This document shows, piece after piece, positions 30,311-54,856 of a DNA stretch of 64,000 nt. The stretch's first letter is position 1. Each line of letters opens with the position of its first letter. This DNA comes from Escherichia coli phage NG_S8: sequence record LC788711.1. The stretch is one strand, 5' to 3'. The position numbers and the translations under genes are program-made. The notes beneath the pieces were generated by a model. That model was given only the letters and a program-made list of their open reading frames with translations. It was not told where the DNA came from and did no database searches.

Positions 30311-30318
30311 ATCAATTT

Positions 30319-39688: not shown

Positions 39689-39719
39689 TGATTTTCCTCT
39701 TTCTCACTATTTCAGGAAT

Positions 39720-39748
39720 ATTATAGCAAATCTGGTAGCGATTAGCAA
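39720..39748 (-). promoter_or_regulatory. T5-type early promoter
   Basis: attata 39720-39725, tagcaa 39743-39748. Confidence 0.6.
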
Positions 39749-39794
39749 GTAAAATTTCAAAGAAAAAGGAGACCCGAAGATCTCCTTGTTTTTA

Positions 39795-42185
39795 TTACAG
39801 GTTACAACCACCTGATGCACAACCTGCTGCTTCTTCACCAGCTCCACCACCATTTTCAGTGTTGAAGTTAGCGTAGTACCAAGTTTTCCAACCGTACTTA
39901 ACAGCAGTCATGAAATCACGAACTACTACTGGACCAGGAATGATTTCATTCTCAAACTTGGTGTAGTCATAGTACATATTCGTACTGATAGACTGACTGA
40001 AAAATTTCTGCATGGTTGCTACCCATTTGATCCACTCGATACGATCTACATCATAAGCCAGTTTATAGCTCATTAATGTATCCCAATCAGTTGCACCTGG
40101 AGCAATTGCAATTACTTTATTCACTGCACTACCCTTGATAGATACGATCTTACGAGGCGGTTCAATAGAGTTAGTAACACCTAGCAGTACAGAGGAACTT
40201 TCACCTGGCATCTGAGCAGTCAGAACAGAGTTACGCATACCATATTTCAGAATATCTGCACGCAGAGATTCCCAATCCATTTCTAGACCTACAGTTACCA
40301 GTTCATCAACAGTTTTCTTATACGTGTCGATTACCAGAGTTCCTTGTGAAGGCTTAGTACGATTAAACCAGTCACATGCACCCTGTTCTTTGGCCAGACG
40401 TACAGAGGCTTTGTGCAGGAAGTAGGACAGCTTTTCAGCTTCACGGTGAATCCAGTTACGTGCTTCAACACCTTCGTAAGCCAAACCTTCTGCTGCCATT
40501 GCACCTGCTGCGTTCATCAGACCAATACCAACGTTACGACGTTTCTTAGCCGTGTATTCCATAGTTGGGAATGGATAATCCTGAATCTCGATGATTGTAT
40601 CAACGAATTTCAGAAGGATGTAGCAAGTTTTCTCCCATTCAGCCAGAGATTCCATGCGGCCTAGTACAACACCACCTAAGTTACACAGAGATACTTCACC
40701 AATATCTTCTGGACGCATATCGTCTAACTGATCTTGGGTTTTATACAGTTCCGTAATGTGATGGAATGGACGGGTTGGCTGAGTAATTTCAACACAAAGG
40801 TTGGTCATACGAATCGGGTCAAGGAAGTTACCATGACGGTTAGATTCACCAATGTGATGAGCATACATACGCCCCGTTTCCATACGGATACGCAACCAAG
40901 TATCTAGGATTTCTTTTGCAGAGATTCTAGGAGCTGCTGGAATTGTTTTTCCTTCGTGGTCGATCTTTGTAAGAGATGCCACACGTTTCTCCGCTGCCAC
41001 GTAGATTTCTTCAAACTTAGCCTCATCTTCGCCATAAAACGCTTCATGAACTTCTGGTGCGTAGAAATAGGACATTAGCGTAATATCTTCGCTTTTCAGG
41101 TAACGTTTTAACAGAAGGTTGTTAAAGCTCAGAGAGTAATCCATTTTATCGATTTTATTCTCGTCTGTAGCACGTTGTTGTTTAACCTGCATCAACTGAA
41201 TGATTTCAGGATCGAAGTATGGATAAGACACAGTAGCAGAACCGCCACGGGTTTGCTGAGTGTTAGCTTTTACTGAACGGTCAATGTGTCGATAATATGG
41301 CAGTTTTCCGGAATGCGGGAATGCCCCATTTCGCACCGGATCAGCAATTGATCGGCTTTCAAGATGATACCCGATTCCCGCTCTGGCTGCGACCATTTTG
41401 AAGACGATGTGCTCGGCTGTGTCGATTGAATCCAGCGTGTCAGTGGAATCCACGAGGCAACAACTAGCAAATCCACGGTCACTAGAGCGCAGGCCAACCA
41501 GTGGCGGCGTAGGAACGTTGATTTTGTGGAGCGACATTGCATTGTAGAGGTCGATTGCATCTAGAATTGTCCAGTTAGGTTGAGATAACATCGCCATTGC
41601 CATACCCATGTAGGCAAACTGCGGGGTTTCATAAATTTCACCAGTTGCAATATTACGACGAGAATACTTGTCGAAGAACTGTTTCAGTCCACCACTGGTG
41701 AATAAACGATCGCGATCATGATCAATAACTTGGTTCAGAGCGTCAAACTGATCATCGCTAATCCATGCACTCATGTCTTCCCAAGCGCCAACACGAACCA
41801 TATGATCGTGGAAGAAACGCAGAGAAGGTGGTTCGAAGGAATCATATAGGCGTTTACGCATCTGCGCAAGACGTAATTCCTTTGCTGGCACATCGTATGC
41901 TGGATTATCTTTGATAAGACCTTCAGCGGCTTTAATTAACGCATCCATTAGGGTATCGGAATCTACAACACCTTTAGGTAGAGTTTTTTGAGCAGACATA
42001 GTGATGGCTGACCAGCTCACATCAACTGTTTTGCAGCCATATACTGCCCAACCATTGAGTTTTTCAGGAGCAAAGTCTTCTACAGTACCGTCACGTTTAA
42101 TTACTTTTGTAATTCTAAAGTCCATTGCGGTTTCCTTTTTATAGTTCTCAGGATTTAGATAGTATTCTACTTTGTTTTGAGTCAT
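39795..42185 (-). CDS. nrdA: ribonucleotide reductase class I alpha subunit (796 aa)
   Basis: ATP-cone N-terminus, active-site NLCxE block, C-terminal Cys pair. Confidence 0.9.
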   Translation of the reverse strand: MTQNKVEYYLNPENYKKETAMDFRITKVIKRDGTVEDFAPEKLNGWAVYGCKTVDVSWSAITMSAQKTLPKGVVDSDTLMDALIKAAEGLIKDNPAYDVPAKELRLAQMRKRLYDSFEPPSLRFFHDHMVRVGAWEDMSAWISDDQFDALNQVIDHDRDRLFTSGGLKQFFDKYSRRNIATGEIYETPQFAYMGMAMAMLSQPNWTILDAIDLYNAMSLHKINVPTPPLVGLRSSDRGFASCCLVDSTDTLDSIDTAEHIVFKMVAARAGIGYHLESRSIADPVRNGAFPHSGKLPYYRHIDRSVKANTQQTRGGSATVSYPYFDPEIIQLMQVKQQRATDENKIDKMDYSLSFNNLLLKRYLKSEDITLMSYFYAPEVHEAFYGEDEAKFEEIYVAAEKRVASLTKIDHEGKTIPAAPRISAKEILDTWLRIRMETGRMYAHHIGESNRHGNFLDPIRMTNLCVEITQPTRPFHHITELYKTQDQLDDMRPEDIGEVSLCNLGGVVLGRMESLAEWEKTCYILLKFVDTIIEIQDYPFPTMEYTAKKRRNVGIGLMNAAGAMAAEGLAYEGVEARNWIHREAEKLSYFLHKASVRLAKEQGACDWFNRTKPSQGTLVIDTYKKTVDELVTVGLEMDWESLRADILKYGMRNSVLTAQMPGESSSVLLGVTNSIEPPRKIVSIKGSAVNKVIAIAPGATDWDTLMSYKLAYDVDRIEWIKWVATMQKFFSQSISTNMYYDYTKFENEIIPGPVVVRDFMTAVKYGWKTWYYANFNTENGGGAGEEAAGCASGGCNL

Positions 42186-42248
42186 TATGCAAGTACAATT
42201 TTTCAGATAAAAAGAGCCCGGATATTTTCATACCCAGGCTCGTCTGTC

Positions 42249-42491
42249 TTACCATTTAAGTTTATCGGCTTGATCAAGTAATTGCTGTTGTATTTCTTGG
42301 TTAAAGAGAATATCTACAGAAGTACTTAGTTCATTATAATTGAAAGGCCGATTTGGATTAGAGGCTACAATTTTCCACGCTAGGGTAGTCTTAGGACTTT
42401 CTTCCCCTTCCTTACGTGTAATCATATTAGCAGCGCTCAGTGAAGTACGGTGGATCTTAGTTTTGCGGTGCAGATGTACGACGTTTCCCAT
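42249..42491 (-). CDS. hypothetical protein (80 aa)
   Basis: ORF track. Confidence 0.45.
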   Translation of the reverse strand: MGNVVHLHRKTKIHRTSLSAANMITRKEGEESPKTTLAWKIVASNPNRPFNYNELSTSVDILFNQEIQQQLLDQADKLKW

Positions 42492-42492
42492 A

Positions 42493-43254
42493 TTACACCT
42501 TCCCCATATCCTTAAAGATATCGTAGAATGCTTTAGACTCTGGTGAGCGAACGTTGTCGATCAGTTCGATCATAGAGAAAGGAGAGTTTTCGTACTTCTC
42601 ATAGACTTCCATAAGAAGTGCTAGACCTGAATCACCCTTGATGTCTTTCTGAGCTATATCCCCACAGATAATTAAACGACAATCTTGTCCTACACGAGTC
42701 AGGAGACAGATCATTGCTTCAACGGAGATATTCTGAGCTTCATCGACAATAACATAGGAGTTGTTGAAAGTTCGACCACGGGCATGTTCGATAGCCAGGA
42801 ATTTGATTTTCTGACGTTCGACATATCCTTTGTAGGCGTGATCACCGATTGCCCATTTCATGCCATCGGCTATTGGTTCCAACCAAGGCTCTAGCTTTTC
42901 TGCCAGATCACCTGGGAGCATACCAAGAGATTTACCTAGAGGTTCGTTCGGACGCACGAGGATCACTTGCTCAATATCTGAGTGAATGTCTACGAGTTCC
43001 TGAGCTGCAAGAACGGATGGAATAAAGGTTTTACCAGTACCTGGTTCACCAATACCCACAGTCACTGTATTGTTCTTGATCATATTGATATATGATTTTT
43101 GCTCACGGTTTTTACCAACTAGGGATTTAGCAACTGGATTGGCGTAATCACCAGAGAAATCTGCTTGAATTACGTTACTCTCATACTTGTTGCCACGCTT
43201 TCTTGAACCATTGCGGTTCTCTCTTTTTTGACGTGCTTTTCCCATAAATAACAC
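42493..43254 (-). CDS. phoH: PhoH-like ATPase (253 aa)
   Basis: Walker A GEPGTGKTF; PhoH-like blocks. Confidence 0.85.
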   Translation of the reverse strand: MLFMGKARQKRENRNGSRKRGNKYESNVIQADFSGDYANPVAKSLVGKNREQKSYINMIKNNTVTVGIGEPGTGKTFIPSVLAAQELVDIHSDIEQVILVRPNEPLGKSLGMLPGDLAEKLEPWLEPIADGMKWAIGDHAYKGYVERQKIKFLAIEHARGRTFNNSYVIVDEAQNISVEAMICLLTRVGQDCRLIICGDIAQKDIKGDSGLALLMEVYEKYENSPFSMIELIDNVRSPESKAFYDIFKDMGKV

Positions 43255-43318
43255 TCCTATAGTGTACTTCGCTAACAGAGGATCAACAAAAAGATCTTGT
43301 TTATCAACTTACAAATAT

Positions 43319-43347
43319 ATTATACCAATATATACGGGAGAAAGCAA
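43319..43347 (-). promoter_or_regulatory. T5-type early promoter for phoH (divergent region)
   Basis: attata 43319-43324, aagcaa 43342-43347. Confidence 0.6.
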
Positions 43348-43539
43348 CTACAATTTTAAATAAGCCTATGATATTGCATTTAAATAAAAAATTTGCTTGC
43401 TTTTATTGGGAGATGTATGGTACTAGATAATCATTTTATATCGCGTACACGGGTGCGTGATTATACTATTTTTAGTAGAGGTTGGCAAATAAAATTTTTT
43501 GACTCAGATCATGTTACAGAACTTTATAGTAAAATATTG

Positions 43540-43568
43540 TTGACATCCGCCTTCGAATGAGTTATAAT
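43540..43568 (+). promoter_or_regulatory. sigma70 consensus promoter for nrdD
   Basis: TTGACA 43540-43545, 17-bp spacer, TATAAT 43563-43568; possible second promoter about 40 bp upstream. Confidence 0.65.
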
Positions 43569-43597
43569 AGTAGTCTTAGTTAGAGAAGGAGGGTATA

Positions 43598-45472
43598 ATG
43601 AATCGCAATGAAGAACTAAAGTATAAAGGAATGCAGTCCTTGATTCGAAACTGCAAAGAAATTATCGAAGGTTCAGCAGATGAAGAGCTGCTGTTTAATA
43701 ATGCCAATAAGCCCTCAGAACGTTTCCCTACACAAAGGGATATGCTTGCAGGGGAATTGAGTAAATATCTGATTCTGGAAGAAATGCCAATCCAGATTCG
43801 AAATGCTCACATGATTGGTGATATTCACTTCCATGATGCTGATTACGCTGCGTTAGGTATGACTAACTGTTGCCTGGTTGCTTTGGAAGATATGTTGAAG
43901 AATGGTATGAAGGTTGGTAATGCTGAAATCAGTACACCAAACTCTATTACTACTGCGGCTGCTATCACAGCTCAGATTATCACTCAGGTTAGTTCACATC
44001 AATATGGGGGTACTTCTGTAGACCGATTAGATGAAGTATTGGCTCCTTATGTTCGTAAGTCTTATGATAAGAATCATGCGTTTGCAAAGCGTTGGACTAA
44101 GGATGAAGCTAAAGCATCTGTAATGGCTACGGAAATGACTGAGAAAGAAGTTTACGATGCCTGTCAGGGCCTGGAGTATGAAATCAATACGATGTTCAAC
44201 TCTAATGGTCAAAGTCCGTTTATTACCTTTGGTTTTGGTCTAGGAACTTCTTTGGAAGCACGTCTTGTACAGAAAGCAATACTAGAAGTACGTATGGATG
44301 GTTTGGGTATCAATAAACGTACAGCTATCTTCCCTAAACTGGTATTTGTTTTGCGTGAGGGCGTAAACATGAAACCTGGTGATGTTAACTATGATATCAA
44401 GAAGTTAGCTATGAAATGTACTGCTGAACGTATGTATCCTGACTACATCAGTTATGATAAGGTTGTAGAAGTTACGGGGGACTACAAAGTCTCTATGGGC
44501 TGTCGTTCGTTCCTGGCTGCTGCGGAAGATGGTGAAACTTCTGGTCGTAACAACTTAGGCGTTGTTTCCGTAAACCTTCCTCGAATCGCTATCGAAGCGG
44601 AAGGAAATATTGATCTATTCTTCGATCTGCTTGAGCTGCGTGTGGATACCGCGTTAAAAGCATTGGAGTGGAGGGTTGATCGCTTAAAATACATTCAAGC
44701 TAAAGCTGCGCCCATCCTCTATATGTCAGGAGCCTTTGGATTACGTCTGGGGCCAGATGAATATGTATTTGATCATTTCTACAAGCGTGCTTCTGTATCT
44801 CTAGGGTATATTGGTTGCCACGAAATGTTGCAGCTCATGTTTGGTAAAGATGTAGATACAATGTCTGAGTCTTGTATCAAGTTCGTTCAACGTGTGCTAC
44901 AATACATGCGTGATCGTGCTGATCAGAAGAAGGAAGAGACTCAATTAGGGTATAGTCTGTATGCTACACCATCTGAATCTCTATGTGACCGCTTCTGTCG
45001 CCTAGACCGTGAGTATTTCCCAGAGCATGAAGATATTCTGGCTAAAGGATATTACACTAATTCCCATCACCTTGATGTAGAACGTAAGGTTGCTCCAAAT
45101 GTGAAGTTTGATTATGAGTCTAACTTTACTCCTATTGCTTCTGGTGGGTGCATTTCCTATGTGGAATTACCGGATATGAAACGATTCCCTGATGCACTGG
45201 AATGGGTTATTAACTATGCTGCAAGTAAAGTTCATTACTTCGGTATTAATACTCCAGTAGACTCTTGTGGGGAATGTGGGTTCTTGGGTGAAACTATAGC
45301 TTCTGAGGATGGTTTCAAATGCCCAATTTGTGGCAATCATGATCCTGAGACTCTTGAGGTAACTCGTCGAGTTTGTGGATATCTTGGAAATCCAGGTGCT
45401 CGTCCGTTTAACCCAGGTAAACAACATGAGGTTATGGGTCGAGTGAAACATCAAGACATTCGCGCTAAATAA
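43598..45472 (+). CDS. nrdD: anaerobic ribonucleotide reductase, class III (624 aa)
   Basis: C-terminal glycyl-radical motif RVCGYLG and Cys zinc site. Confidence 0.9.
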   Translation: MNRNEELKYKGMQSLIRNCKEIIEGSADEELLFNNANKPSERFPTQRDMLAGELSKYLILEEMPIQIRNAHMIGDIHFHDADYAALGMTNCCLVALEDMLKNGMKVGNAEISTPNSITTAAAITAQIITQVSSHQYGGTSVDRLDEVLAPYVRKSYDKNHAFAKRWTKDEAKASVMATEMTEKEVYDACQGLEYEINTMFNSNGQSPFITFGFGLGTSLEARLVQKAILEVRMDGLGINKRTAIFPKLVFVLREGVNMKPGDVNYDIKKLAMKCTAERMYPDYISYDKVVEVTGDYKVSMGCRSFLAAAEDGETSGRNNLGVVSVNLPRIAIEAEGNIDLFFDLLELRVDTALKALEWRVDRLKYIQAKAAPILYMSGAFGLRLGPDEYVFDHFYKRASVSLGYIGCHEMLQLMFGKDVDTMSESCIKFVQRVLQYMRDRADQKKEETQLGYSLYATPSESLCDRFCRLDREYFPEHEDILAKGYYTNSHHLDVERKVAPNVKFDYESNFTPIASGGCISYVELPDMKRFPDALEWVINYAASKVHYFGINTPVDSCGECGFLGETIASEDGFKCPICGNHDPETLEVTRRVCGYLGNPGARPFNPGKQHEVMGRVKHQDIRAK

Positions 45473-45480
45473 TGAATCAG

Positions 45481-45516
45481 CCAGGTTGCTAGTCGACCTG
45501 GCTTTTATTTTATTTG
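45481..45516 (+). terminator. intrinsic terminator after nrdD
   Basis: hairpin ccaggttgctagtcgacctgg followed by T-run. Confidence 0.65.
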
Positions 45517-45542
45517 CTTTCGAGCTAAAACTTATGTATAAT
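45514..45542 (+). promoter_or_regulatory. T5-type early promoter
   Basis: TTGCTT 45514-45519, TATAAT 45537-45542, conserved leader. Confidence 0.65.
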
Positions 45543-45570
45543 TGATTTATAAATTTGAGAGGAGAAAGCT

Positions 45571-45852
45571 ATGAGCGAATTGCTTCCGAAAGTAGATGTT
45601 TCCCATCTTGGAGAGCCTAGTGAAGAACGTAAGGCTCTAGATTGGTTGGGCGGATTTGATTATCGTCGTGTTGTTGCAACATGGAATGATAAGAAAGTTA
45701 AGAAGTTTCGGGTACATTATGTAGGTAAAGACAAGTGGCTCTGGATTGATTATGAAGAATCGAAGGGGTCTACTAAGGCTGTGAAAATTTATCGTATGTA
45801 TGGGTATTATTATGCTCACTGTGATAAGAATGAATTTACAGTACAGAACTAA
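45571..45852 (+). CDS. hypothetical protein (93 aa)
   Basis: ORF track; GAGAGGAG RBS. Confidence 0.5.
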   Translation: MSELLPKVDVSHLGEPSEERKALDWLGGFDYRRVVATWNDKKVKKFRVHYVGKDKWLWIDYEESKGSTKAVKIYRMYGYYYAHCDKNEFTVQN

Positions 45853-45861
45853 GGAATAAGA

Positions 45862-46065
45862 ATGAAAAACGTAAAACATCTTAAATATCGCTTAATTTAC
45901 AACGGACGTATGGAAACAGAAGATCTAGCTCAGCTAGCGATCAATTCAGATGAAGTTACAGTTCGTGCTTTGTCCATCGAGAAGCTGCGTGCTTCTTATG
46001 AAAATCGTATTATGGAATTGGAGGAAAAACTTTATGGACTTCTTGAATCAGAATCTAAAAAGTAA
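45862..46065 (+). CDS. hypothetical protein (67 aa)
   Basis: ORF track. Confidence 0.45.
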   Translation: MKNVKHLKYRLIYNGRMETEDLAQLAINSDEVTVRALSIEKLRASYENRIMELEEKLYGLLESESKK

Positions 46066-46228
46066 TTTAGAAAATATGCTTATGGAGCAGTGGAATGCTG
46101 GGTATAATGCTGGAGTAGCTACCTGTATTGCTGGTTTGGATATGCTTATTAAGCAAGAGAAGGTTCGCCCAGAAGAAGCAATTCTGCTCCAAAATATCAT
46201 CGAAGGATTCAAGCAAGGAATCATATAA
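46034..46228 (+). CDS. hypothetical protein (64 aa; start moved to ATG 46034)
   Basis: in frame with track ORF 45950-46228. Confidence 0.4.
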   Translation: MDFLNQNLKSNLENMLMEQWNAGYNAGVATCIAGLDMLIKQEKVRPEEAILLQNIIEGFKQGII

Positions 46229-47079
46229 TGCGTAGACTAATCGTTGTTAGTGGTGCAGGTTTGAGTGTAGATAGTGGTGTTCGTGCTTTCCGTACTGATA
46301 CTGCTAGTGGGAAATCCTTGTGGGATGAGTACGATCTAGAGGAAGTATGTAGCTTGCCTAACTTTGAAGCTGGCTTCCGTCGCTTCTGTGGTGAAGATGA
46401 TCCTAACTACTTCAGTGCTCGTTTCCCTGGCATTGATAAAGATGGTAACGATCTGTATCTCAAGACTCATGAGTTCTACAACATGCGTCGTCAGGAATTA
46501 CAGACTGTTGAGCCTAACATTGCCCATCTGCGAATTGCAGAATGGTTCCAGCGTTATGGTGCGGATAGCGTGAAGAACTTCACTACTAACGTTGATGACC
46601 TTCTGGAACGTGCTGGTATCCCTCGTGATGAAATCATTCACGCTCACGGGTACTTGAAAGAGGTGATCTATCGTCAGGGTCGCAACCAAATCATCGAAGA
46701 TGTTGGGTATACTGCGATTGCCCCTGAGGATTACGAATGGGTAAAACCAAACGTAACATTCTTTGGTGAGACGGCTCCGTGGTATATGGGTCAGATTAAC
46801 CTGTTTGATACACTTACTAGCAATGATATGGTTATTGTAGTAGGTTGTAGCAACCAAGTAATCGACTTCAACTGGGAGCTATTTCCTGCTGTATGTCGTG
46901 GAACTAAGATGATGGTTGTTAACCCACAAGTTCGTTATGACGAACAGCTTGAGTATGAGAAACGTGGTGTTACTGTATGGCGTGCTGGAGCTGCCGAAGT
47001 TTTTGGTAATAAACACTTTATTGATCAAGTTGAAGCTTTTATGGAGGGAAATATTTATGTCCCAGAAAAGCATGTGTGA
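46228..47079 (+). CDS. Sir2-family NAD-dependent protein (283 aa)
   Basis: N-terminal GAGLSVDSGVRAFR matches the Sir2 NAD-binding signature. Confidence 0.7.
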   Translation: MRRLIVVSGAGLSVDSGVRAFRTDTASGKSLWDEYDLEEVCSLPNFEAGFRRFCGEDDPNYFSARFPGIDKDGNDLYLKTHEFYNMRRQELQTVEPNIAHLRIAEWFQRYGADSVKNFTTNVDDLLERAGIPRDEIIHAHGYLKEVIYRQGRNQIIEDVGYTAIAPEDYEWVKPNVTFFGETAPWYMGQINLFDTLTSNDMVIVVGCSNQVIDFNWELFPAVCRGTKMMVVNPQVRYDEQLEYEKRGVTVWRAGAAEVFGNKHFIDQVEAFMEGNIYVPEKHV

Positions 47080-47239
47080 TCTTTTAGTATGGCCAGACGG
47101 TAGTTGGTGCTACCGTTTCGAATTTGCTACTGATGACTTCTCATGGAAGAGTGATGATTTCTGCGTTATCTATGAGGATACAGCAGAATGGAAAGAGTTC
47201 CTTATTAAGGAGGGAGAATATGGTGAAGAAGATTTTTAA
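47072..47239 (+). CDS. small acidic protein (55 aa)
   Basis: ATG overlaps Sir2 stop. Confidence 0.35.
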   Translation: MCDLLVWPDGSWCYRFEFATDDFSWKSDDFCVIYEDTAEWKEFLIKEGEYGEEDF

Positions 47240-47405
47240 GGGTATCTGGAAAGGTCTAGTATGGTTTGTCAACCTAATCGGTATGATTACCATTTATTCT
47301 CTGTTCCTATCTGTTATGTGGGGTAAAGGTGAATTGAAGGTTCCAGTTCCTTTTACTGATGAAGTTAAAGTCTGGACGTGGGATGCTACTGGTGGAAATA
47401 AGTAA
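47220..47405 (+). CDS. small membrane protein (61 aa)
   Basis: AAGGAGGG RBS; hydrophobic helix. Confidence 0.4.
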   Translation: MVKKIFKGIWKGLVWFVNLIGMITIYSLFLSVMWGKGELKVPVPFTDEVKVWTWDATGGNK

Positions 47406-47899
47406 TACTCCTGTGATTTTCCTGGATATTGATGGGGTGCTCAATTCGAGCATCTCTCACCATCATGCTCCAGATAGTGAGAAGCTATTCTTTGGGGGTG
47501 ATTGGGTTTACAAGCCATTACTCCAGGCTTTTCAGAACTTTCTTGAGCCATCCCCAATAATGATTGTTGGGGTATCTTCATGGTTTTCTGTACGAAATGA
47601 AATGGAGAACGTTCAGATTATGACCGGACTCGGTTTGATCGATCGTTTTCTTGGTACAACAGATTTTACTGGAGGTGGTTTATCTCGGGGGTAATTCTGT
47701 TTTACGTTTTGTCGAAAAATATAAGCTCAAGCATTGGTGTGTCCTAGATGATGCTGGTGCTATGATGTATCAATTTCCTACTGTTATTGTAAACGGCAGG
47801 ACTGGAATAAACCTTCAAGATTTAAACGCTATCAGCTATATGCTGGAGTTTAGTCCAGATCTTGAAATGTGTAAGGCTCTTCAGAAACTTAAGGTATAA
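47383..47899 (+). pseudogene. HAD-superfamily phosphatase-like gene interrupted by a +1 frameshift at a G5 run
   Basis: N-part carries VIFLDIDGVLN; C-part in +1 frame carries HWCVLDDAG; frames meet at ggggg 47687-47691. Confidence 0.5.
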
Positions 47900-47901
47900 G
47901 C

Positions 47902-48330
47902 ATGTTCAATAATATTTTCATGAAAGAGGTAAATCCTATGCTTCTCAACTTCTGGCGCTCTCTCCCTAATGGTATGTATAATGAAACCATCAATCTCCTT
48001 AAGATTTGGTGTGAGAATAACGATATCTTCCTGTCTTTTAAAGGCCCGCTAGAGGAAGCTCCGTGTATTGGAGTTAGTGTGGATTTAGGCGAGGGAGTAG
48101 AAGAGATTGTAGACTGGAAAGAACTTGATGAAATGGGTCTGGTTTTTGCCTTGAACCATAAGCTGTTTATGCCTGCAAATCACCGTCTTATTGTAAATTA
48201 TCGCACTGGTGAAGCTCCTGCTTTCCAGGTAAATGAACGTGAGGGCTGGTCATACTCGCCCGGGGAAGTAAATGAGGGGATTCAGAAACTTCGTCGTTTC
48301 GGGTATATGATCCCAGGTTTAACTGCTTAA
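47902..48330 (+). CDS. hypothetical protein, paralog A (142 aa)
   Basis: shares DW.EL..MGL..ALN...F.P and PGL pattern with next ORF. Confidence 0.5.
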   Translation: MFNNIFMKEVNPMLLNFWRSLPNGMYNETINLLKIWCENNDIFLSFKGPLEEAPCIGVSVDLGEGVEEIVDWKELDEMGLVFALNHKLFMPANHRLIVNYRTGEAPAFQVNEREGWSYSPGEVNEGIQKLRRFGYMIPGLTA

Positions 48331-48339
48331 GGAGGCAGA

Positions 48340-48735
48340 ATGGAACAAGTATTTTGGCGTCAGATAGATCCTAGTTTGGTAGAGCGTGCTGAGGGGCTCC
48401 TTGCACGTTGGTTGGGGGTTGACAAGGTTAGTGTAACATTTCCGTTTACTTCTGTAACAGACCCTAGTGTAGGAGTCTTTGTGGATGAAGATGAAGATGA
48501 TGGTTGGGAAGCTGACTGGAATGAATTGTCCAGCATGGGCTTGATTGTTGCCCTCAACTTCTCTATATTCCATCCACGTGGCTTAGCCATTACACGTGAC
48601 CCCGAAACTGGTGAATCCCCTTATCTTTTGCAAGTAGAAGATGATATTTGGGAGTACACCGAAGATATTCTCGAAGAAGCTAAAGGTCACTTAAATCGCA
48701 TTGGGATCTATGTCCCAGGCCTAAATGATGATTGA
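48340..48735 (+). CDS. hypothetical protein, paralog B (131 aa)
   Basis: tandem paralog of 47902-48330. Confidence 0.5.
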   Translation: MEQVFWRQIDPSLVERAEGLLARWLGVDKVSVTFPFTSVTDPSVGVFVDEDEDDGWEADWNELSSMGLIVALNFSIFHPRGLAITRDPETGESPYLLQVEDDIWEYTEDILEEAKGHLNRIGIYVPGLNDD

Positions 48736-48826
48736 TTTTCATTAGCCCAATCCTGATTACCGAGTCATTTTGGCTCGGTTTTCTCTGTGCTCAAAGACAC
48801 TGATAGCACCTTCGGAAAAATTTTAC

Positions 48827-48855
48827 TTGCAGGATGCTCAAAATCTTGATATAAT
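48827..48855 (+). promoter_or_regulatory. T5-type early promoter with long leader
   Basis: TTGCAG 48827-48832, TATAAT 48850-48855; no start codon for about 500 nt. Confidence 0.55.
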
Positions 48856-49351
48856 ATTTATATTGAATTGAGAGACATTAGTAAAAATTGATTTTGCTAA
48901 TTTTTCTTGTTTACAATCCGCAATACGGAACAGTTAGGCTGCCCCATTAAGGGTTGTTTTAACTATTACTAGTGTTTATACTGCATTAGTTAATTATCAA
49001 TTAAGTGATCTGCGTACCCTGAATTCGGAAAGGTAAATCCAAACCGTGCATATTTAGCTCGTTATATAGGCAGAGCTTTATATGGGGGTGCGAACGAAAA
49101 GAGCAGCGAATGGTGACACGTCCAGTAGCCACCTACCAATAGGATAGTGAGGGCAATCAGAATCGGCTTAGCGGCCAATGACCTAGGTTCTGATCTGGAT
49201 AAGAGTTAAGAGAGCGCAGCACTGAGGTATGATAACTTATTCATACTGCTTGATGGTGATTAATGTTTGTGTAAATGGTAGTAATAGTTGTTCTATTCTT
49301 TTGAATAGTCCTAAAGAAAGATATCCGAATAACCAACATAGGAGTATTGTT

Positions 49352-52141
49352 GTGTTCTCAATCCTACAAGGTCACGCAGGATTTTCCAGAGATAAAGCCA
49401 CTGGCATCTGGAAAGAGATCAAAGTGGAAGATTACACCTTTGCAAAGCGATTCTCTAAAGAGCATCCAGAAGGTAAACCAGCTTCCATGCCCTTCAAATT
49501 TGATGTACTTGAAGAACTTGACCCGCAAAACCTTGCTGAAATGTTACCTATCATGCGTCGTCTTACCAAAGACCCGCATATTGTAGCTATTCGGGGTAAG
49601 TGTCTAGCTCCAAAAGATAATGTGCGTCGTACCAGAGGAAACTTTAACGTATCCAATCCTAGTCATATTATTGCTATGGACGTGGATGGTATTGTAGATA
49701 CTGGTGGCTATGACAAGTTTAATCTTGTTGGCATGGCACGTCATATTATTAAGATGTTGAATAGTATTAGTGAGGATATGTTTCCTCTTGATGCAGGGTT
49801 TATTGCCCATGCATCGTCTTCGGCTGGATTAAAACCAGGTATCCGAATGCACTTAATGCTAGAATCTAATGTCAAGGTAACGCAGGGACAGTTAAAGTTC
49901 TTATTTACATCTATCAATGATAGTAGTAAGCAAAAGTACGGCTTTGATATTGCTGACTTAGCTTATTATTCTTCTGTTCAGCTTCACTATTTCGCAGATC
50001 CCTTATTTGATGATGGTATAGTCGATCCGTTTAAAGCGGAGAATAAACCACGTCTTGTGTATGTTAAGGGTTCGAAGGTGAATCTACCTAATAACCTAGT
50101 TGACTTTGAAACAACTAGAGGTGAGTTTAAAGAAGAATTCTACTCCTTACTTGACCAAATTAAAGGCAAGAAGGCTGCATCTGATAAAGTGGAAGAAACC
50201 ATCAGCGAACTAGAAGAAGCTGAGGATGGGGTGTACCTGCGTATTATTCCAAAACTTTACCACAGAGCGTTAGAAGATGGTGTTGACTTTACATGGTTAG
50301 AACGTGAGATTAAACCAGCTTTATCTGAATATATTGCAACTAAAGATAATAGTCGTAATATTCAAGATTACTTTAATAACGGTCGTAAGCAGGCTCTCAA
50401 AGCCTTTGTAAATAACTCCAAACGTGAGATTCCACCAAACTTAAAAGGTGTACCATTAAAACGTCTAGACACAGATTCTCCACCAGAAGTTCCATACCTG
50501 AAAATTAACATTGTACCACCAAAAGGACATTTAACATTTGTTAAGGCAAGTCTTGGTACGGGTAAAACTACAGCAGTAACTAAGTGGCTAGATGCAGGTG
50601 TTCTTCCAGGAAACTTTATTGCAATCACAAATACTAGGGCACTTGTATCTTCTAACGCGAAGAAATTCGGTGCTGGTCAGTATGATAAGTCAGTTGATAT
50701 GCTGAACTTCAAACGTGGTGCCATTGATCGTATGTCTTCAACTATTCACTCTATCCATAAGTTCAAGAGCTTTGTGGGTCAGATTGATACGATCTTTATT
50801 GATGAATGTGACGCAGTAATGAATGATCTGTTATTCGCTCCGGTTGTTAAAAACCGTCGTGAATGTATTCAGGTTCTTCGTGATATCCTTATTACTGCTA
50901 AAACTGTTATCTTATCCGATGGTGATATCAGTGCAGAAACGATTGAAGCCTATGGTTCTTTGATTGATTTTGATAAACCAGTCGCATTTTATAATCACCA
51001 CCGTAAAATGCTGGCGAAAGCTCATGCTTATGAATTCCCTGATGAATCCAGTATTTGGGTTGCACTTCAAACATCTTTAGAGATGGGGGAGAAATCAATC
51101 CTAGTATCTGACTGTGGCCCGGATGAACTGAATGAGAAGGGAATGGCATTACGTCGTAATACTGGTGCGTTAGTTAAAGAAATTCACTCAAACTCTACGT
51201 CTGATGTAGATATCCGACGTATTCTGGATTATACAACTAATGAGCTAATTGATCAACAGATTGATTGTTTATTATGTAGTCCATCTGTAACGAGTGGTGT
51301 TGACTTTAACTATTTTGATAACGTATTCGTAATCACTAGAACCTCAAACCAAGCGCCAAACATGCGTTTTCAAGCAATCAGGCGCGACCGTGGTGCTCAG
51401 AACATTTATTATTTTATTGATAAATCTACGAGTGGATTTTCTGCGGGTTCCGAGCAATATAATATTGACGAAGGTTGGATTGAGTTAGCCCAACAACTGT
51501 ACGCACGTCGTCGTGAGCTGGAATCTAGAAACTATACTAGTACTTTGCGTTATTATCTGCTTGATCAGGGTGCAACTATCGATATTTTCAGCGAAAGCTG
51601 GGGAACTATCGAAGGTGCAGGCAAAGAGTATACAGAAGAGCGAATCAAAGCTATTTTGCACTCAACTCCTGAATATTGTGCACCACGTCATGCAGATGCC
51701 TATGAAGCCAAGTTACTTCTGGTTCGCTATTATCATCTGGATTCTATTAAAGATGTAACAGTGGAACACGTTGAACAGTATATCAAGGATAAACCAAACG
51801 ATAGAGCTGCATTCTTCCATAAGATGCACGACATGTTCTGGGAAGATATTAAAAAGTGTTCAAACGTAACAATCAAACCGTTTATCGAAGCTCTTAAGAA
51901 TAAGAAGAAGGATTTCTTCCTTAAGACAGGTCAGAGCGCTAACCCAAAATATGCTCGTATGTATCTTGGCATGATGGGTATCGGTAAAGATCTGGATACG
52001 GAAAAGATTGTGGACTGGTACAGAACTTACTGTAAGATCGAATGTATGCCGATTCCAGTTAAGTTTATGACAGATGAAGAACGTCAGATGCATGAGGAAG
52101 CTCTTGCTGAATTGGGGGCTAGAAATGACAGCGAAGAATAA
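49352..52141 (+). CDS. SF2 helicase-like replication origin-binding-type protein (about 929 aa, GTG start)
   Basis: Walker A SLGTGKTT, Walker B IFIDECDAV; AGGAG RBS before GTG 49352; track ORF extends to 49229. Confidence 0.7.
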   Translation: MFSILQGHAGFSRDKATGIWKEIKVEDYTFAKRFSKEHPEGKPASMPFKFDVLEELDPQNLAEMLPIMRRLTKDPHIVAIRGKCLAPKDNVRRTRGNFNVSNPSHIIAMDVDGIVDTGGYDKFNLVGMARHIIKMLNSISEDMFPLDAGFIAHASSSAGLKPGIRMHLMLESNVKVTQGQLKFLFTSINDSSKQKYGFDIADLAYYSSVQLHYFADPLFDDGIVDPFKAENKPRLVYVKGSKVNLPNNLVDFETTRGEFKEEFYSLLDQIKGKKAASDKVEETISELEEAEDGVYLRIIPKLYHRALEDGVDFTWLEREIKPALSEYIATKDNSRNIQDYFNNGRKQALKAFVNNSKREIPPNLKGVPLKRLDTDSPPEVPYLKINIVPPKGHLTFVKASLGTGKTTAVTKWLDAGVLPGNFIAITNTRALVSSNAKKFGAGQYDKSVDMLNFKRGAIDRMSSTIHSIHKFKSFVGQIDTIFIDECDAVMNDLLFAPVVKNRRECIQVLRDILITAKTVILSDGDISAETIEAYGSLIDFDKPVAFYNHHRKMLAKAHAYEFPDESSIWVALQTSLEMGEKSILVSDCGPDELNEKGMALRRNTGALVKEIHSNSTSDVDIRRILDYTTNELIDQQIDCLLCSPSVTSGVDFNYFDNVFVITRTSNQAPNMRFQAIRRDRGAQNIYYFIDKSTSGFSAGSEQYNIDEGWIELAQQLYARRRELESRNYTSTLRYYLLDQGATIDIFSESWGTIEGAGKEYTEERIKAILHSTPEYCAPRHADAYEAKLLLVRYYHLDSIKDVTVEHVEQYIKDKPNDRAAFFHKMHDMFWEDIKKCSNVTIKPFIEALKNKKKDFFLKTGQSANPKYARMYLGMMGIGKDLDTEKIVDWYRTYCKIECMPIPVKFMTDEERQMHEEALAELGARNDSEE

Positions 52142-52358
52142 AAAGTGGGAAACAAGGAAGTTTTCCGTAAAAGAACGGAAAACTTCTGTTTACGATACTG
52201 CGGAGAAACTATGTAGGGTTGTACCACCTCGTCTCGCTGGCATCCCTAACGTCTCCATATGGTTACTTAAACAACGGAAGACTCGTGTGTCTCTTCGCAT
52301 TGGCTTTGAGTTAGATAAAGTCTATGCTGAACTTGCTTCTTTGCTCAAAGAATCGTAA
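52125..52358 (+). CDS. hypothetical basic protein (77 aa)
   Basis: ATG overlaps end of upstream gene. Confidence 0.35.
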   Translation: MTAKNKKWETRKFSVKERKTSVYDTAEKLCRVVPPRLAGIPNVSIWLLKQRKTRVSLRIGFELDKVYAELASLLKES

Positions 52359-52366
52359 AAATTTAT

Positions 52367-52395
52367 TTGCTTTTAGGAAAATTTTTCTGTATAAT
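52367..52395 (+). promoter_or_regulatory. PN25-like strong early promoter
   Basis: TTGCTT 52367-52372, TATAAT 52390-52395; sequence nearly identical to the T5 PN25 promoter as recalled. Confidence 0.8.
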
Positions 52396-52426
52396 AGATT
52401 CATAAATTTGAGAGAGGAGTTTAAAT

Positions 52427-53131
52427 ATGGCTGGTTCTCGTAGAAAGAAACTTATCCATGAAATCCCTGATGAAACCTTTAAAAAGGTTATTGAACATCT
52501 GGAGAATGGTGGTACTAAGAAAGCAGCATGTGAAATGCTCGGTGTTTCTTCTAACCCAACTATGGAACGAATGATCGAAGAATGGAGAGATCGTCAGGTT
52601 CAAGTTGCGGAAATGAAAAAGAAGAAGCGTGGAACACTGATTGAGGGTGTTGAGCTTGCAAACGTAATTGAACAGTATCTTTCTGGTGATTCTTTTGAAG
52701 AAATTGCTGATCGTAACTATCGTTCTGTAGCGATGATTAAATCTGTTCTGGAACGTTATGGTGCTCTGCTTCGTTTAAACGATATTGTTGATCCATTGAA
52801 TCCTCCGTTGATTCCTGATGATGCAATGGCAGAAGAATTTGAAGTTGGTGAACTTGTTTGGGTTCCTGGCTATCAGTGTATTGGTGAAATCAAGAAAGCA
52901 ATGACTAACCCAGTTGGCTGCTACCGTGTTTGGTTGTTATCAGAAGGTAAACAACAGAACGTTCACTATATGCACTACGAATTAGCTTCTGTTAAACATC
53001 TGGAAAAGCTGGGTGTTGATGTTAAGGCTCTGGGCTTTAAGTGGAGTCGTGAAGAAGTTATCACGTTGGTTAATGAAGCTGTTAAAGCTGCCCTGAAACT
53101 AGATAAAGAGAAAGGAAAACGTCGTGAGTAA
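52427..53131 (+). CDS. HTH-containing protein, possible regulator (234 aa)
   Basis: N-terminal helix-turn-helix-like GTKKAACEMLGVSSNPTMERMI. Confidence 0.55.
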   Translation: MAGSRRKKLIHEIPDETFKKVIEHLENGGTKKAACEMLGVSSNPTMERMIEEWRDRQVQVAEMKKKKRGTLIEGVELANVIEQYLSGDSFEEIADRNYRSVAMIKSVLERYGALLRLNDIVDPLNPPLIPDDAMAEEFEVGELVWVPGYQCIGEIKKAMTNPVGCYRVWLLSEGKQQNVHYMHYELASVKHLEKLGVDVKALGFKWSREEVITLVNEAVKAALKLDKEKGKRRE

Positions 53132-53360
53132 ACTAACTGATCTGTTAAAAGCTGGAGACGTAAAATATCTCCAGCGAACTAGTTGGGAAAATAATAAAGA
53201 TTACACAGTAATCCTGAAATTCTTTGTAGATAGCAATACCGTACGCCAGTACGTGTGGATGCCTTTTGATACATCATTATTCCCAAGTGATGAAGTGTGT
53301 GAACTAACCCTAGAAGAAGCCCTGGCCGACGATTGGGAGATCGTTGAACTAGATGTGTAG
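53124..53360 (+). CDS. hypothetical protein (78 aa)
   Basis: ORF track; overlaps upstream stop. Confidence 0.5.
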   Translation: MSKLTDLLKAGDVKYLQRTSWENNKDYTVILKFFVDSNTVRQYVWMPFDTSLFPSDEVCELTLEEALADDWEIVELDV

Positions 53361-53380
53361 CAGTTACTGAAAAATTTCAG

Positions 53381-53409
53381 TTGCTTAATCCTGTAATTCT
53401 TGATATAAT
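53381..53409 (+). promoter_or_regulatory. T5-type early promoter
   Basis: TTGCTT 53381-53386, TATAAT 53404-53409. Confidence 0.65.
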
Positions 53410-53467
53410 ATTCTCATAGTTTGAAAGAACTATTCTGTTTAATTCTTAATTAAGGAAATCGAAAAAT

Positions 53468-53878
53468 ATGACTACTCCAACTCAGTGGACTGATGAACTG
53501 TTCGAAAAAATGTCTTCCGACTACGTTGCTCGTATGGAGCAATTCCCAGAAGATGAGCGTCCGGGCGTTAGCATGGAAATTGTTAGCGAAATTGCTCAGG
53601 AAAATGGTGTAACTCCGAACGGTTTCCGTATGAAGCTGACCAAAGCAGGTCTGTATATCAAGAAAGCTGCTGGCTCTACTTCTAAATCAAGCGCATCTAC
53701 TGGAGAAAAAGCTTCTGGTGGTTCTCGTACTTCCAAAGCTCAGGCTCACTCCGATCTTCGCTCCGCATTCTCTGATGCTGGCTTAGCCCCGGACTTCCTG
53801 GACGACGCAATCATCGACAAGCTGACCGGTAAAGCAGCTGCTCATCTGGCAGAAGCTATCCGAGCTATCACTAAGTAA
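53468..53878 (+). CDS. hypothetical protein with D5-like repeat unit (136 aa)
   Basis: segment TPNGFRMKLTKAGLYIKK resembles repeats of the 56795 protein. Confidence 0.5.
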   Translation: MTTPTQWTDELFEKMSSDYVARMEQFPEDERPGVSMEIVSEIAQENGVTPNGFRMKLTKAGLYIKKAAGSTSKSSASTGEKASGGSRTSKAQAHSDLRSAFSDAGLAPDFLDDAIIDKLTGKAAAHLAEAIRAITK

Positions 53879-53914
53879 TTCTTAGATAAATCCACCAACA
53901 CAAGGAATACAGTT

Positions 53915-54211
53915 ATGAATAAAGCTGAAATTATTGCTCAATGCGAAAAATTTGGTGAGTTTTATCTTCATTACGAAAAACTTCGTCAGAAAGGAACCAC
54001 GTACCTTCAGGGTACGATGGAATTTGATCCAGCTCAGGATAAATACCTGGCTGAGCGTATTAAACGTGAGCGCATCCGTAAGCCGAAAGAAGATGAAATC
54101 CTCGTTTTCTCTCGTACTAACGATAGCTTCCGTTTCATTCCTGTTGCGAAAGTTCGCCGTGTGACGAGCCTCCAGTCAGAGTTAGATCGTGCTTCTCCAG
54201 TAGGCCGATAA
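53915..54211 (+). CDS. hypothetical protein (98 aa)
   Basis: ORF track. Confidence 0.5.
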   Translation: MNKAEIIAQCEKFGEFYLHYEKLRQKGTTYLQGTMEFDPAQDKYLAERIKRERIRKPKEDEILVFSRTNDSFRFIPVAKVRRVTSLQSELDRASPVGR

Positions 54212-54221
54212 GAAACCAATT

Positions 54222-54243
54222 AGCCCCTATATGGGGCTTTTTG
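54222..54243 (+). terminator. intrinsic terminator
   Basis: hairpin agcccc-tatat-ggggct followed by ttttt. Confidence 0.6.
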
Positions 54244-54261
54244 TGTATTTGGGATATGTAA

Positions 54262-54570
54262 ATGAGCGATCAGGTAAATCAAAACTATGAAGGACACGTT
54301 GACGACCAGTCCATCATGCTTTGGGAGAAGGAGGGGGAACAAGTAAGACTAACCGTATCTGAATTTCGTGGGAATCTATACATGGGAATTCGTTACTGGC
54401 TCCAAGATATTACTGGAGAGTGGTTTCCAACGAAATCCGGCTTCTCTTTTCCTTATACCCTAGAAACTACATCACAGCTATTCTACGCTTTTACGCAAAT
54501 CCTCAGTGAATCCGAGGTCTTGCATGAAGTACAGAAACGAGCTGAAGAACTCAAAGCCAAGAATGCCTAG
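54262..54570 (+). CDS. hypothetical protein (102 aa)
   Basis: ORF track. Confidence 0.5.
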   Translation: MSDQVNQNYEGHVDDQSIMLWEKEGEQVRLTVSEFRGNLYMGIRYWLQDITGEWFPTKSGFSFPYTLETTSQLFYAFTQILSESEVLHEVQKRAEELKAKNA

Positions 54571-54588
54571 TTCTTGGCTTTTTCTTTA
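54555..54588 (+). terminator. intrinsic terminator
   Basis: hairpin agccaagaa/ttcttggct followed by T-run. Confidence 0.6.
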
Positions 54589-54597
54589 TAAATGTAC

Positions 54598-54626
54598 TTG
54601 CTTTCGACTCAGTTTTCATATATAAT
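54598..54626 (+). promoter_or_regulatory. T5-type early promoter
   Basis: TTGCTT 54598-54603, TATAAT 54621-54626. Confidence 0.65.
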
Positions 54627-54637
54627 ATTTATATAAA

Positions 54638-54856
54638 TTGATGAGAGGATCAATTATGGCAATGACAATAACACTTCCAAAGATTCAAGCAAAACTTAAT
54701 TTGCTCTCCATAGCAAGAATCAATTACCAGGATAGTATCGGCACTCCAAACCAGAAAGCGTACAAAGATGCGTGGTTGAAAGAAGCTGCTGATTTAGCTG
54801 GTATGGCTGCTCAGTATAATAAAGAACTCAAAATGGAAATCGCAGACGATGAATAA
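54638..54856 (+). CDS. hypothetical protein (72 aa)
   Basis: ORF track. Confidence 0.45.
   Translation: MMRGSIMAMTITLPKIQAKLNLLSIARINYQDSIGTPNQKAYKDAWLKEAADLAGMAAQYNKELKMEIADDE

What the first reader, a model, noticed from the sequence alone, without database searches (positions are those of the whole stretch)
47383..47899. HAD-type phosphatase split by a +1 frameshift at a G5 homopolymer, next to Sir2
Track ORF 47359-47694 contains HAD motif I (VIFLDIDGVLN) and stops at TAA just after ggggg (47687-47691). The +1 frame continues immediately with a region holding an HAD motif-IV-like HWCVLDDAG through 47899. Joining them by skipping one G gives a single protein of about 170 aa. It may be a sequencing or assembly indel, a recent inactivation, or programmed frameshifting.
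Basis: seen in the sequence. Interest (0 to 1): 0.5.

Follow-up and report, generated by a model that had tools for sequence, protein, structure and literature searches.

The report
One-base insertion breaks phage phosphatase gene
A small phosphatase gene that almost all T5-like phages keep intact is broken here by one extra G, found in no other sequence searched; this is an ordinary fresh mutation or sequencing error, not a programmed frameshift.

Summary
The window is a T5-like Salmonella/E. coli phage (Epseptimavirus). At 47383-47899 lies the orthologue of T5 gene T5.105, a 171-aa capless HAD phosphatase (Pfam PF18143, HAD_SAK_2) two small genes downstream of the phage Sir2. A run of five G (47687-47691) causes a TAA stop at 47692-47694. 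Deleting one G restores a protein 100% identical to that of phage SH9.

The G5 allele is private. It was absent from 50,697 phage records, IMG/VR, the metagenome contigs and 185,579 genomes, while the G4 control 45-mer hit 88 records. The run encodes the invariant Arg102-Gly103, and relatives use CGG/CGA/CGT/AGG/AGA GGT, so no slippery site is conserved. dN/dS is about 0.06, and the out-of-frame 3' part shows no decay.

It is the only frame-breaking indel in a conserved ORF of at least 100 aa seen across the roughly 59 kb compared. Programmed frameshifting is therefore rejected. Real recent mutation (slightly favoured) and base-calling error cannot be separated without reads.

The gene is dispensable: independent lesions exist in misterkot/PMBT26, S.Ent 1-35-3, SHSML-45 and DT57C. 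The Sir2-HAD neighbourhood is already described as a predicted RNA-repair/ADP-ribose module. Interest is low.

The parts
47383..47694 (+). 5' part of the T5.105-type HAD_SAK_2 phosphatase gene (codons 1-103 plus the premature TAA at 47692-47694). It carries motif I FLDIDGVLN (47419-47445; Asp15 at 47425-27, Asp17 at 47431-33), motif II VGVSSWF, and the TGGG..RG motif. Alternative starts are ATG 47359 and GTG 47392.
   Evidence: Pfam PF18143 positions 1-78, E 2.3e-10. SH9 annotates the start equivalent to 47383; ZBSTP12 and T5 annotate the one equivalent to 47392.
47687..47691 (+). G5 run: a one-base insertion relative to every relative examined (G4 or an interrupted run). It lies in the codons for the invariant Arg102-Gly103.
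   Evidence: Alignment A1; indel census; site survey CGG/CGA/CGT/AGG/AGA GGT. The G5 k-mer was absent from four collections, while the G4 control was present in 88 records.
47693..47899 (+). 3' part of the same gene, now in the +1 frame (codons 104-171 plus stop at 47897-47899). It holds motif IV VLDD (Asp122-Asp123 at 47747-47752). No plausible start of its own lies upstream of motif IV.
   Evidence: Pfam positions 94-138. No nucleotide difference from SH9, ZBSTP12 or 3-29 in this part.
47715..47719 (+). A5 run, normal here. In phages misterkot and PMBT26 it is A6, an independent frameshift of the same gene.
46228..47079 (+). Phage Sir2 (sirtuin) gene, the conserved neighbour of the phosphatase gene (T5.102 equivalent).
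   Evidence: phrog_2162 E 2.5e-107. NCBIfam Sir2/CobB models match below their cut-offs. T5 annotation.
47057..47405 (+). Two small conserved ORFs between Sir2 and the phosphatase gene: 47057-47239 (T5.103-like, phrog_5116) and 47220-47405 (T5.104-like, hydrophobic, phrog_11166). The second overlaps the start of the phosphatase gene.
47902..48735 (+). Two paralogous downstream genes (47902-48330 and 48340-48735; T5.106/T5.107 equivalents, both phrog_2502, function unknown). The first starts 3 nt after the phosphatase stop.

Best explanation
This is the T5.105-type gene of a T5-like phage. It encodes a 171-aa capless, Mg-dependent HAD phosphatase of family HAD_SAK_2 that travels with the phage Sir2.

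In this genome a single G has been added to a GGGG run formed by the codons CGG GGT (invariant Arg102-Gly103, at the HAD motif III position). Translation therefore ends at a TAA one codon later. The 103-aa product keeps the nucleophile motif DxD, motif II and the Arg. It lacks strand S4 with the Mg-binding Asp122-Asp123 (motif IV) and the rest of the fold, so it should be inactive.

I take the extra G to be a real, very recent, non-programmed slippage mutation: a null allele of a dispensable accessory gene, fixed for example during plaque purification. The insertion, its privacy and its recency are shown. That it exists in the phage DNA rather than only in the assembly is inferred. The loss of activity is inferred from HAD family knowledge.
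For: - **Insertion relative to relatives:** alignment A1 and indel censuses against five close genomes.
- **Private allele:** G5 k-mers gave 0 hits in the phage records, IMG/VR, metagenome contigs and genome contigs. The G4 control hit 88 records. The truncated products are not on record.
- **Recent:** the repaired gene differs from SH9 by one synonymous base, and the out-of-frame 3' part has no differences from three relatives.
- **Clean assembly elsewhere:** among 53-55 long ORFs of each of three relatives, only this one is split in the window. The first 25.2 kb is 99.89% identical to phage 9-29, with only 4 gaps in that alignment: two at its ends, one between annotated genes and one at a gene junction. 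The window has 185 homopolymer runs of 5 or more bases and none of 7 or more. A platform prone to homopolymer errors would be expected to leave several errors.
- **Real lesions of the same gene exist:** the A6 allele occurs in two isolates from different laboratories. A 1-nt deletion occurs in an assembly whose contig name gives coverage 710. DT57C carries a Sir2-to-HAD deletion annotated as defective. SHSML-45 has lost the N-terminal part.
Against: The allele is a singleton at a homopolymer, which is also where base-calling and polishing errors fall. The absence of downstream decay fits an artefact equally well. The gene is under strong purifying selection in the family (dN/dS about 0.06 at dS about 1) and is intact in nearly all of 464 records, so a null allele should be disfavoured in nature. 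No reads, platform or coverage information is available.
Confidence: 0.55

Rival explanations
1. Sequencing, assembly or polishing artefact. The phage really has GGGG and an intact 171-aa gene, and the fifth G is a homopolymer miscall.
For: The allele is unique among all collections searched. It sits in a homopolymer. The repaired protein is 100% identical to SH9, and the 3' part carries no further change. The family is under strong purifying selection and almost always intact.
Against: No other frame-breaking indel in a conserved ORF of at least 100 aa was found in about 59 kb compared with close relatives, despite 185 runs of 5 or more bases. A five-base run is short for systematic homopolymer error. 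Real lesions of this gene occur in other isolates.
Confidence: 0.41
2. Recoding. Full-length protein is still made from the G5 template, either by +1 ribosomal slippage at CGG-GGG-UAA (P-site tRNA-Gly re-pairing on GGU next to a stop) or by transcriptional slippage. This could be programmed or a leaky rescue.
For: A stop codon immediately 3' of a repetitive P-site codon is the general layout of 'shifty stops' such as prfB (own knowledge). A +1 shift at either the CGG or the GGG codon would reproduce the wild-type sequence ...SRGNSVL (read from the sequence).
Against: No relative has the two-ORF layout, and all 33 intact T5-like copies read at DNA level are single ORFs. The Arg codon varies (CGG, CGA, CGT, AGG, AGA), so no slippery run is conserved. 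The only Shine-Dalgarno-like GGAGG (47671-47675) ends 13 nt before the shift codon, against 3 nt in prfB, and in T5 the same TGGG motif is encoded by ACT GGT GGT GGG, which is not Shine-Dalgarno-like. The downstream 80 nt fold no better than shuffles (z -1.28). All 29 phage tRNAs, including Gly-UCC and Gly-GCC, have ordinary anticodons. G5 is too short for known RNA polymerase slippage (own knowledge).
Confidence: 0.03
3. Two separate functional genes: a split enzyme whose halves are made independently and reassemble.
For: Both halves are still open reading frames.
Against: In the +1 frame the only start upstream of motif IV is TTG 47651, which has no ribosome-binding site; the first ATG (47762) lies after the DD motif. 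No relative is organised this way. The break cuts the Rossmann-like core between motif III and strand S4.
Confidence: 0.01

Closest known systems
T5.105 of phage T5 (YP_006933.1) and its orthologues, e.g. SH9 ASZ77823.1
   Same: Same gene at the same position: nrdD ... sir2, two small ORFs, this gene, two phrog_2502 paralogues, then the origin-binding helicase. The repaired protein is 100% identical to SH9, and SH9-type and T5-type proteins are about 88-91% identical.
   Different: Here the gene carries one extra G and is split. In T5 RefSeq and in phrog_18062 the protein is mislabelled 'Sir2 (NAD-dependent deacetylase)', although it is a HAD phosphatase.
Pfam PF18143 HAD_SAK_2 (HAD domain of 'Swiss Army Knife' RNA repair proteins); Sir2 + HAD neighbourhood typified by phage SP15 (Iyer et al. 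2022, PMC9503650, section 3.7.3)
   Same: The repaired protein covers the whole profile (66.3 bits against a 27.5-bit cut-off). Sir2 is linked, as the paper describes. SP15 is among the orthologue hits. The linkage persists in distant homologues at 40-46% identity with the gene order reversed.
   Different: The family's role (RNA 2'/3'-phosphate end clean-up, or processing of ADP-ribose phosphates made by the sirtuin) is a prediction; no biochemistry was found. This copy is a stand-alone domain, not part of a multidomain repair protein. No RNA ligase was seen beside it in the T5-like loci.
Capless (C0) HAD phosphatases with solved structures: MDP-1 (1u7o/1u7p), SCP1/FCP1 CTD phosphatases, T4 Pnk and mammalian PNKP phosphatase domains
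   Different: Only 11-16% sequence identity, with no sequence-level PDB hit. An invariant Arg, rather than the usual Lys, sits at the motif III position (assignment inferred).
prfB-type programmed +1 frameshifting
   Same: A stop codon sits directly after a codon on which the P-site tRNA could re-pair one base downstream.
   Different: There is no conservation of the site or of a two-ORF layout, the Shine-Dalgarno-like sequence is at the wrong spacing, and the layout occurs in this genome only.
Macro-domain ADPR-1''-phosphate phosphatase Adpp of extended NARP1 operons (Osterman et al. 2026 preprint, 10.64898/2026.01.28.702374)
   Same: A phage phosphatase gene attached to NAD+-related genes. 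In Serratia phage ChuuTotoro a HAD_SAK_2 homologue overlaps by 4 nt a PRPP-synthetase-like gene followed by a NAPRTase-like gene, which is the NARP1 gene pair by domain content.
   Different: The fold is different (Macro versus HAD). The preprint does not mention HAD enzymes. An ADPR-phosphate substrate for HAD_SAK_2 is only my inference from gene context.

Membership tests
HAD superfamily phosphatase | Motif I DxDx(T/V) at the end of strand S1 | tested here: met
   FLDIDGVLN is invariant in 23 homologues. In the window it lies at 47419-47445, in frame with the start.
HAD superfamily phosphatase | Motif II Ser/Thr at the end of S2, and motif III Lys/Arg at the N-terminus of the helix before S4 | tested here: met
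   S65 is invariant and S66 nearly so, after strand 60-63. R102 is invariant at the start of helix 100-113. Assigning R102 to motif III is an inference from position.
HAD superfamily phosphatase | Motif IV acidic pair at the end of S4, in the same polypeptide | tested here: not met
   D122-D123 are invariant in the family. In the window they lie at 47747-47752 in the +1 frame, beyond the premature stop. The feature is met only after one G is removed.
HAD superfamily phosphatase | Rossmann-like three-layer fold with a beta-hairpin flap after S1 | tested here: met
Pfam PF18143 HAD_SAK_2 | Score above the gathering cut-off (27.5 bits) over the full profile | tested here: met
   The intact orthologue scores 66.3 bits over positions 1-138 of 139. 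The window N part scores 41.4 bits (positions 1-78) and the C part 15.6 bits (positions 94-138).
Sir2-HAD predicted RNA-repair/ADP-ribose module (PMC9503650) | Sirtuin gene in a conserved neighbourhood with the HAD_SAK phosphatase | tested here: met
   In the window Sir2 is at 46228-47079 and the HAD gene at 47383-47899. The same holds in T5, Pantoea phage AAS21 and a 40%-identical metagenomic T5-like contig.
Sir2-HAD predicted RNA-repair/ADP-ribose module (PMC9503650) | Phosphatase activity on RNA terminal phosphates or ADP-ribose phosphates | not testable with these tools
   Only predicted in the literature read. No biochemical paper on T5.105 was found.
Programmed +1 ribosomal frameshift | Shift site and two-frame layout conserved among orthologues | tested here: not met
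   All 33 intact T5-like copies read at DNA level are single ORFs, with CGG, CGA, CGT, AGG or AGA before GGT. In a spread sample of 60 of the 464 records, 54 show one full-length piece.
Programmed +1 ribosomal frameshift | Stimulatory element (Shine-Dalgarno-like sequence about 3 nt upstream, or downstream structure) or a dedicated tRNA | tested here: not met
   GGAGG ends 13 nt upstream of the shift codon. The downstream fold has z -1.28. The 29 tRNAs have ordinary anticodons.

The most novel reading that the evidence does not exclude
The G5 allele is real, and the phage still makes some full-length phosphatase by +1 slippage of tRNA-Gly at CGG-GGG-UAA. This would be a newly arisen, leaky 'shifty stop' that down-tunes rather than abolishes the Sir2-linked phosphatase.
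Probability: 0.03. Interest if true: 0.4.

Novelty: already known. Interest (0 to 1): 0.08.

Why it matters
It matters little for biology and mainly for annotation. The two ORFs at 47383-47694 and 47693-47899 should be annotated as one disrupted T5.105-type HAD_SAK_2 phosphatase gene, or as one intact gene if reads show GGGG. They should not be annotated as two hypothetical proteins or as 'Sir2'.

If the lesion is real, it adds one more natural knockout showing that the Sir2-HAD module of T5-like phages is dispensable in the laboratory. Such a phage could be compared with its G4 relatives on hosts that carry RNA-cleaving or NAD+-depleting defences.

Tried and rejected
- **Other carriers of the G5 allele:** a 46-mer search of the phage records, a 36-mer search of IMG/VR, and 27-mer searches of the metagenome and genome contigs all gave nothing. 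Exact look-ups of the 103-aa and 111-aa truncated products also gave nothing.
- **Sequence search of the PDB:** only spurious matches to His-tag/TEV-linker regions, E 0.1 or worse.
- **NCBIfam:** no model matches the phosphatase.
- **Literature:** nothing on 'T5.105'. HAD_SAK_2/PF18143 gave one passing mention.
- **Frameshift stimulators:** the downstream RNA fold is not significant and no unusual tRNA was found.
- **A second private homopolymer error at 30321:** rejected. It is a substitution plus indel at the stop codon of a minus-strand gene that changes the C-terminus by two residues, not a run-length change.
- **Phage 9-29 as the parent genome:** it is 99.89% identical over window 1-25202 but only 97.5% over 39.7-54.6 kb, so the genome is mosaic. 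The nearest sequence for this gene is SH9.
- **Split-enzyme reading:** rejected because the C-terminal part has no usable start.

Full report
**What is there.** The window is a T5-like phage of the genus Epseptimavirus. A 901-nt stretch around the finding matches 407 phage records; the best is Salmonella phage SH9 at 99.8%. In frame 1 an ORF runs from ATG 47359 or 47383 (relatives also annotate GTG 47392). It reads MLLVEISNTPVIFLDIDGVLN...TDFTGGGLSRG and stops at TAA 47692-47694, directly after GGGGG at 47687-47691. The +1 frame continues with NSVLRFVEKYKLKHWCVLDDAG... to TAA 47897-47899.

**One gene, not two.** The intact SH9 orthologue (171 aa) matches Pfam PF18143 HAD_SAK_2 over profile positions 1-138 of 139 (E 4.7e-18, 66.3 bits against a cut-off of 27.5). 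The window's N part matches positions 1-78 (E 2.3e-10). The C part matches positions 94-138 (E 0.021). Removing one G gives a 171-aa protein identical to SH9 ASZ77823.1, with one synonymous nucleotide difference in 516 nt. The T5 orthologue is T5.105 (YP_006933.1), which sits in the same gene order: sir2 (T5.102), two small ORFs, T5.105, two paralogues (T5.106 and T5.107), a terminator, and then the origin-binding helicase.

**The lesion is an insertion private to this sequence.** Against SH9, PMBT26 and misterkot the window has one extra G. SH9 reads CGA GGT and the other two read CGG GGT.
- A 46-mer centred on G5 finds none of 50,697 phage records.
- The same 45-mer with G4 finds 88 records, 61 of them in the ≥99% identity band.
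- Shorter G5 k-mers find nothing in IMG/VR, the metagenome contigs or 185,579 reference genomes.
- The truncated proteins are not among 153 billion recorded gene products.

**The site is not a conserved slippery sequence.** In an alignment of 23 homologues down to 27% identity, the invariant residues are F13-N21 (FLDIDGVLN), S65, W67, F68, L83, G97, G98, R102, D122, D123 and G141. The G run is simply the codons of the invariant Arg102-Gly103. In the T5-like loci read at DNA level these codons are CGG, CGA, CGT, AGG or AGA followed by GGT, and all 33 intact copies run 159 codons from F13 to the stop. A tblastn search with the intact protein finds 464 records. Of those, 441 have at least 80% of the protein in one place. 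In an evenly spaced sample of 60, the gene is one full-length piece in 54.

**Selection and age.** Against T5-type orthologues dS is about 1.0 and dN/dS about 0.06, and it is low in both halves (0.07-0.11 for the N half, 0.04-0.05 for the C half). The family is therefore under strong purifying selection. The window's out-of-frame 3' part has no difference from SH9, ZBSTP12 or 3-29. The insertion is thus either very recent or not real.

**Is the assembly error-prone?** I compared the window with ZBSTP12, 3-29, STK8t and 9-29.
- Almost all indels are compensating pairs inside divergent stretches or lie between genes.
- Among 53-55 stop-to-stop ORFs of at least 100 aa from each of three relatives that match the window, the only one split over two frames in all three comparisons is this gene.
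- Window 1-25202 is 99.89% identical to phage 9-29, with 24 mismatches and 4 single-base gaps. Two of those gaps fall at the alignment ends, one between annotated genes and one at a gene junction.
- The compared regions hold 185 homopolymer runs of 5 or more bases, 19 of 6 or more and none of 7 or more.
- A suspected second private indel at 30321 turned out to be a substitution plus indel at a stop codon.

The sequence is therefore not riddled with homopolymer errors, which weakens the artefact reading but does not exclude it.

**The gene is lost repeatedly in viable phages.**
- Misterkot and PMBT26, isolated and sequenced by different groups, share A6 instead of A5 at the position of window 47715-47719, followed by an immediate stop.
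- S.Ent 1-35-3, a contig whose name gives coverage 710, has a 1-nt deletion in the TGGG codons 15 nt upstream of the window's G run.
- SHSML-45 keeps only residues 64-171.
- DT57C has a deletion that fuses the start of sir2 to codons 135-171 of this gene and is annotated 'defective'.

Real null alleles of this gene therefore exist, which makes a real G insertion plausible.

**Programmed frameshifting.** A +1 shift at CGG-GGG-UAA would regenerate the wild-type sequence, and a stop after a repetitive codon resembles known shifty stops. Everything else speaks against a programmed event:
- Neither the site nor a two-ORF layout is conserved.
- The Shine-Dalgarno-like GGAGG (47671-47675) ends 13 nt before the shift codon. 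It merely encodes the TGGG motif, which T5 writes as ACT GGT GGT GGG.
- The downstream 80 nt fold no better than shuffled sequence (z -1.28; 20 of 200 shuffles fold as well).
- The 29 phage tRNAs have ordinary anticodons.

A low level of spontaneous rescue cannot be excluded.

**Likely role.** Iyer et al. 2022 (PMC9503650, section 3.7.3) already describe this neighbourhood, typified by the T5-like phage SP15. [quoted passage not shown] They propose that together these clean up RNA ends bearing 2',3'-cyclic or 2'-phosphates, or process the ADP-ribose phosphate made by the sirtuin.

Gene contexts of distant homologues fit an NAD+/ADP-ribose and RNA-repair theme:
- Sir2 lies one gene away, in reversed order, in Pantoea phage AAS21 and in a 40%-identical T5-like contig.
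- An RNA ligase lies 3 kb away in another lineage.
- A nucleotidyltransferase-like gene lies nearby in another.
- In Serratia phage ChuuTotoro the gene overlaps a PRPP-synthetase-like plus NAPRTase-like pair, which resembles the NARP1 NAD+ reconstitution operon.

Extended NARP1 operons are known to carry a Macro-domain ADPR-1''-phosphate phosphatase. A HAD in that position may be an analogue, but this is only a lead.

**Verdict.** This is a conserved, already described accessory gene carrying a private one-base insertion in a short G run. My estimates are: real recent null mutation about 0.55, sequencing or assembly artefact about 0.41, recoding about 0.03, split enzyme about 0.01. The feature is ordinary, and only reads or re-sequencing can settle which of the first two holds.

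Noticed in passing
L007 1589-2095 (T5 NC_005859 57588-58094, T5.105); also STK8t_47 in L006 23888-24403: RefSeq and PHROG-derived annotation calls this HAD phosphatase 'Sir2 (NAD-dependent deacetylase)'. phrog_18062, a 92-aa profile labelled Sir2, matches residues 80-171 of the HAD protein (E 7.5e-54), while the true Sir2 is phrog_2162. The label looks like an error spread from the neighbouring gene or from the DT57C Sir2-HAD fusion.
   Followed up: partly
L044 4001-7217 (Serratia phage vB_SmaM-ChuuTotoro ON287369): A HAD_SAK_2 homologue (41% identity) overlaps by 4 nt a PRPP-synthetase-like gene, which is followed by a NAPRTase-like gene. By domain content this is the NARP1 (Adps + Namat) NAD+ reconstitution pair. 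It may be a HAD counterpart of the Macro-domain ADPR-1''-P phosphatase Adpp, and the preprint on Adpp does not mention it.
   Followed up: partly
L002 and L003 about 2116-2125 (PMBT26, misterkot); L041 1001-1503 (S.Ent 1-35-3); L040 1842-2114 (DT57C); L034 (SHSML-45): There are at least four other independent lesions of the same gene in T5-like phages: an A5-to-A6 frameshift shared by two isolates, a 1-nt deletion in the TGGG codons, loss of the N-terminal part, and a Sir2-to-HAD deletion fusion. The Sir2-HAD module is dispensable for growth in culture.
   Followed up: yes
window 1-25202 versus 39718-54647: The genome is mosaic. The first 25.2 kb is 99.89% identical to Salmonella phages 9-29 and 1-19, but the replication-gene block is only 97.5% identical to 9-29 and nearest to ZBSTP12 and 3-29 (98.7%). 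The 901 nt around the finding is nearest to SH9 (99.8%). The window's own record is not in the phage collection.
   Followed up: partly
window 47902-48330 and 48340-48735: Two tandem paralogous genes of unknown function (both phrog_2502; T5.106/T5.107 equivalents) directly follow the phosphatase gene. The first starts 3 nt after its stop, so a premature stop 205 nt upstream could affect its expression.
   Followed up: no
window 18962-29167, minus strand: A cluster of 29 tRNA genes includes two tRNA-Gly (UCC, GCC), three tRNA-Met and two copies of tRNA-Ala(UGC). This is typical of T5-like phages, and none has an unusual anticodon.
   Followed up: yes
window 49229-52141: The longest ORF for the origin-binding helicase (T5.108 / D1 equivalent) is 970 aa, while relatives annotate 929 aa (2790 nt). 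The extra N-terminal 41 codons are probably not translated.
   Followed up: no
window 30312-30330, minus-strand gene end: Relative to four close phages, the 450-nt gene ending here has a different stop context (GEFN* instead of GEFNKN*), caused by a substitution plus a 1-nt indel at the stop codon. This looks like natural C-terminal variation, not a homopolymer change.
   Followed up: yes
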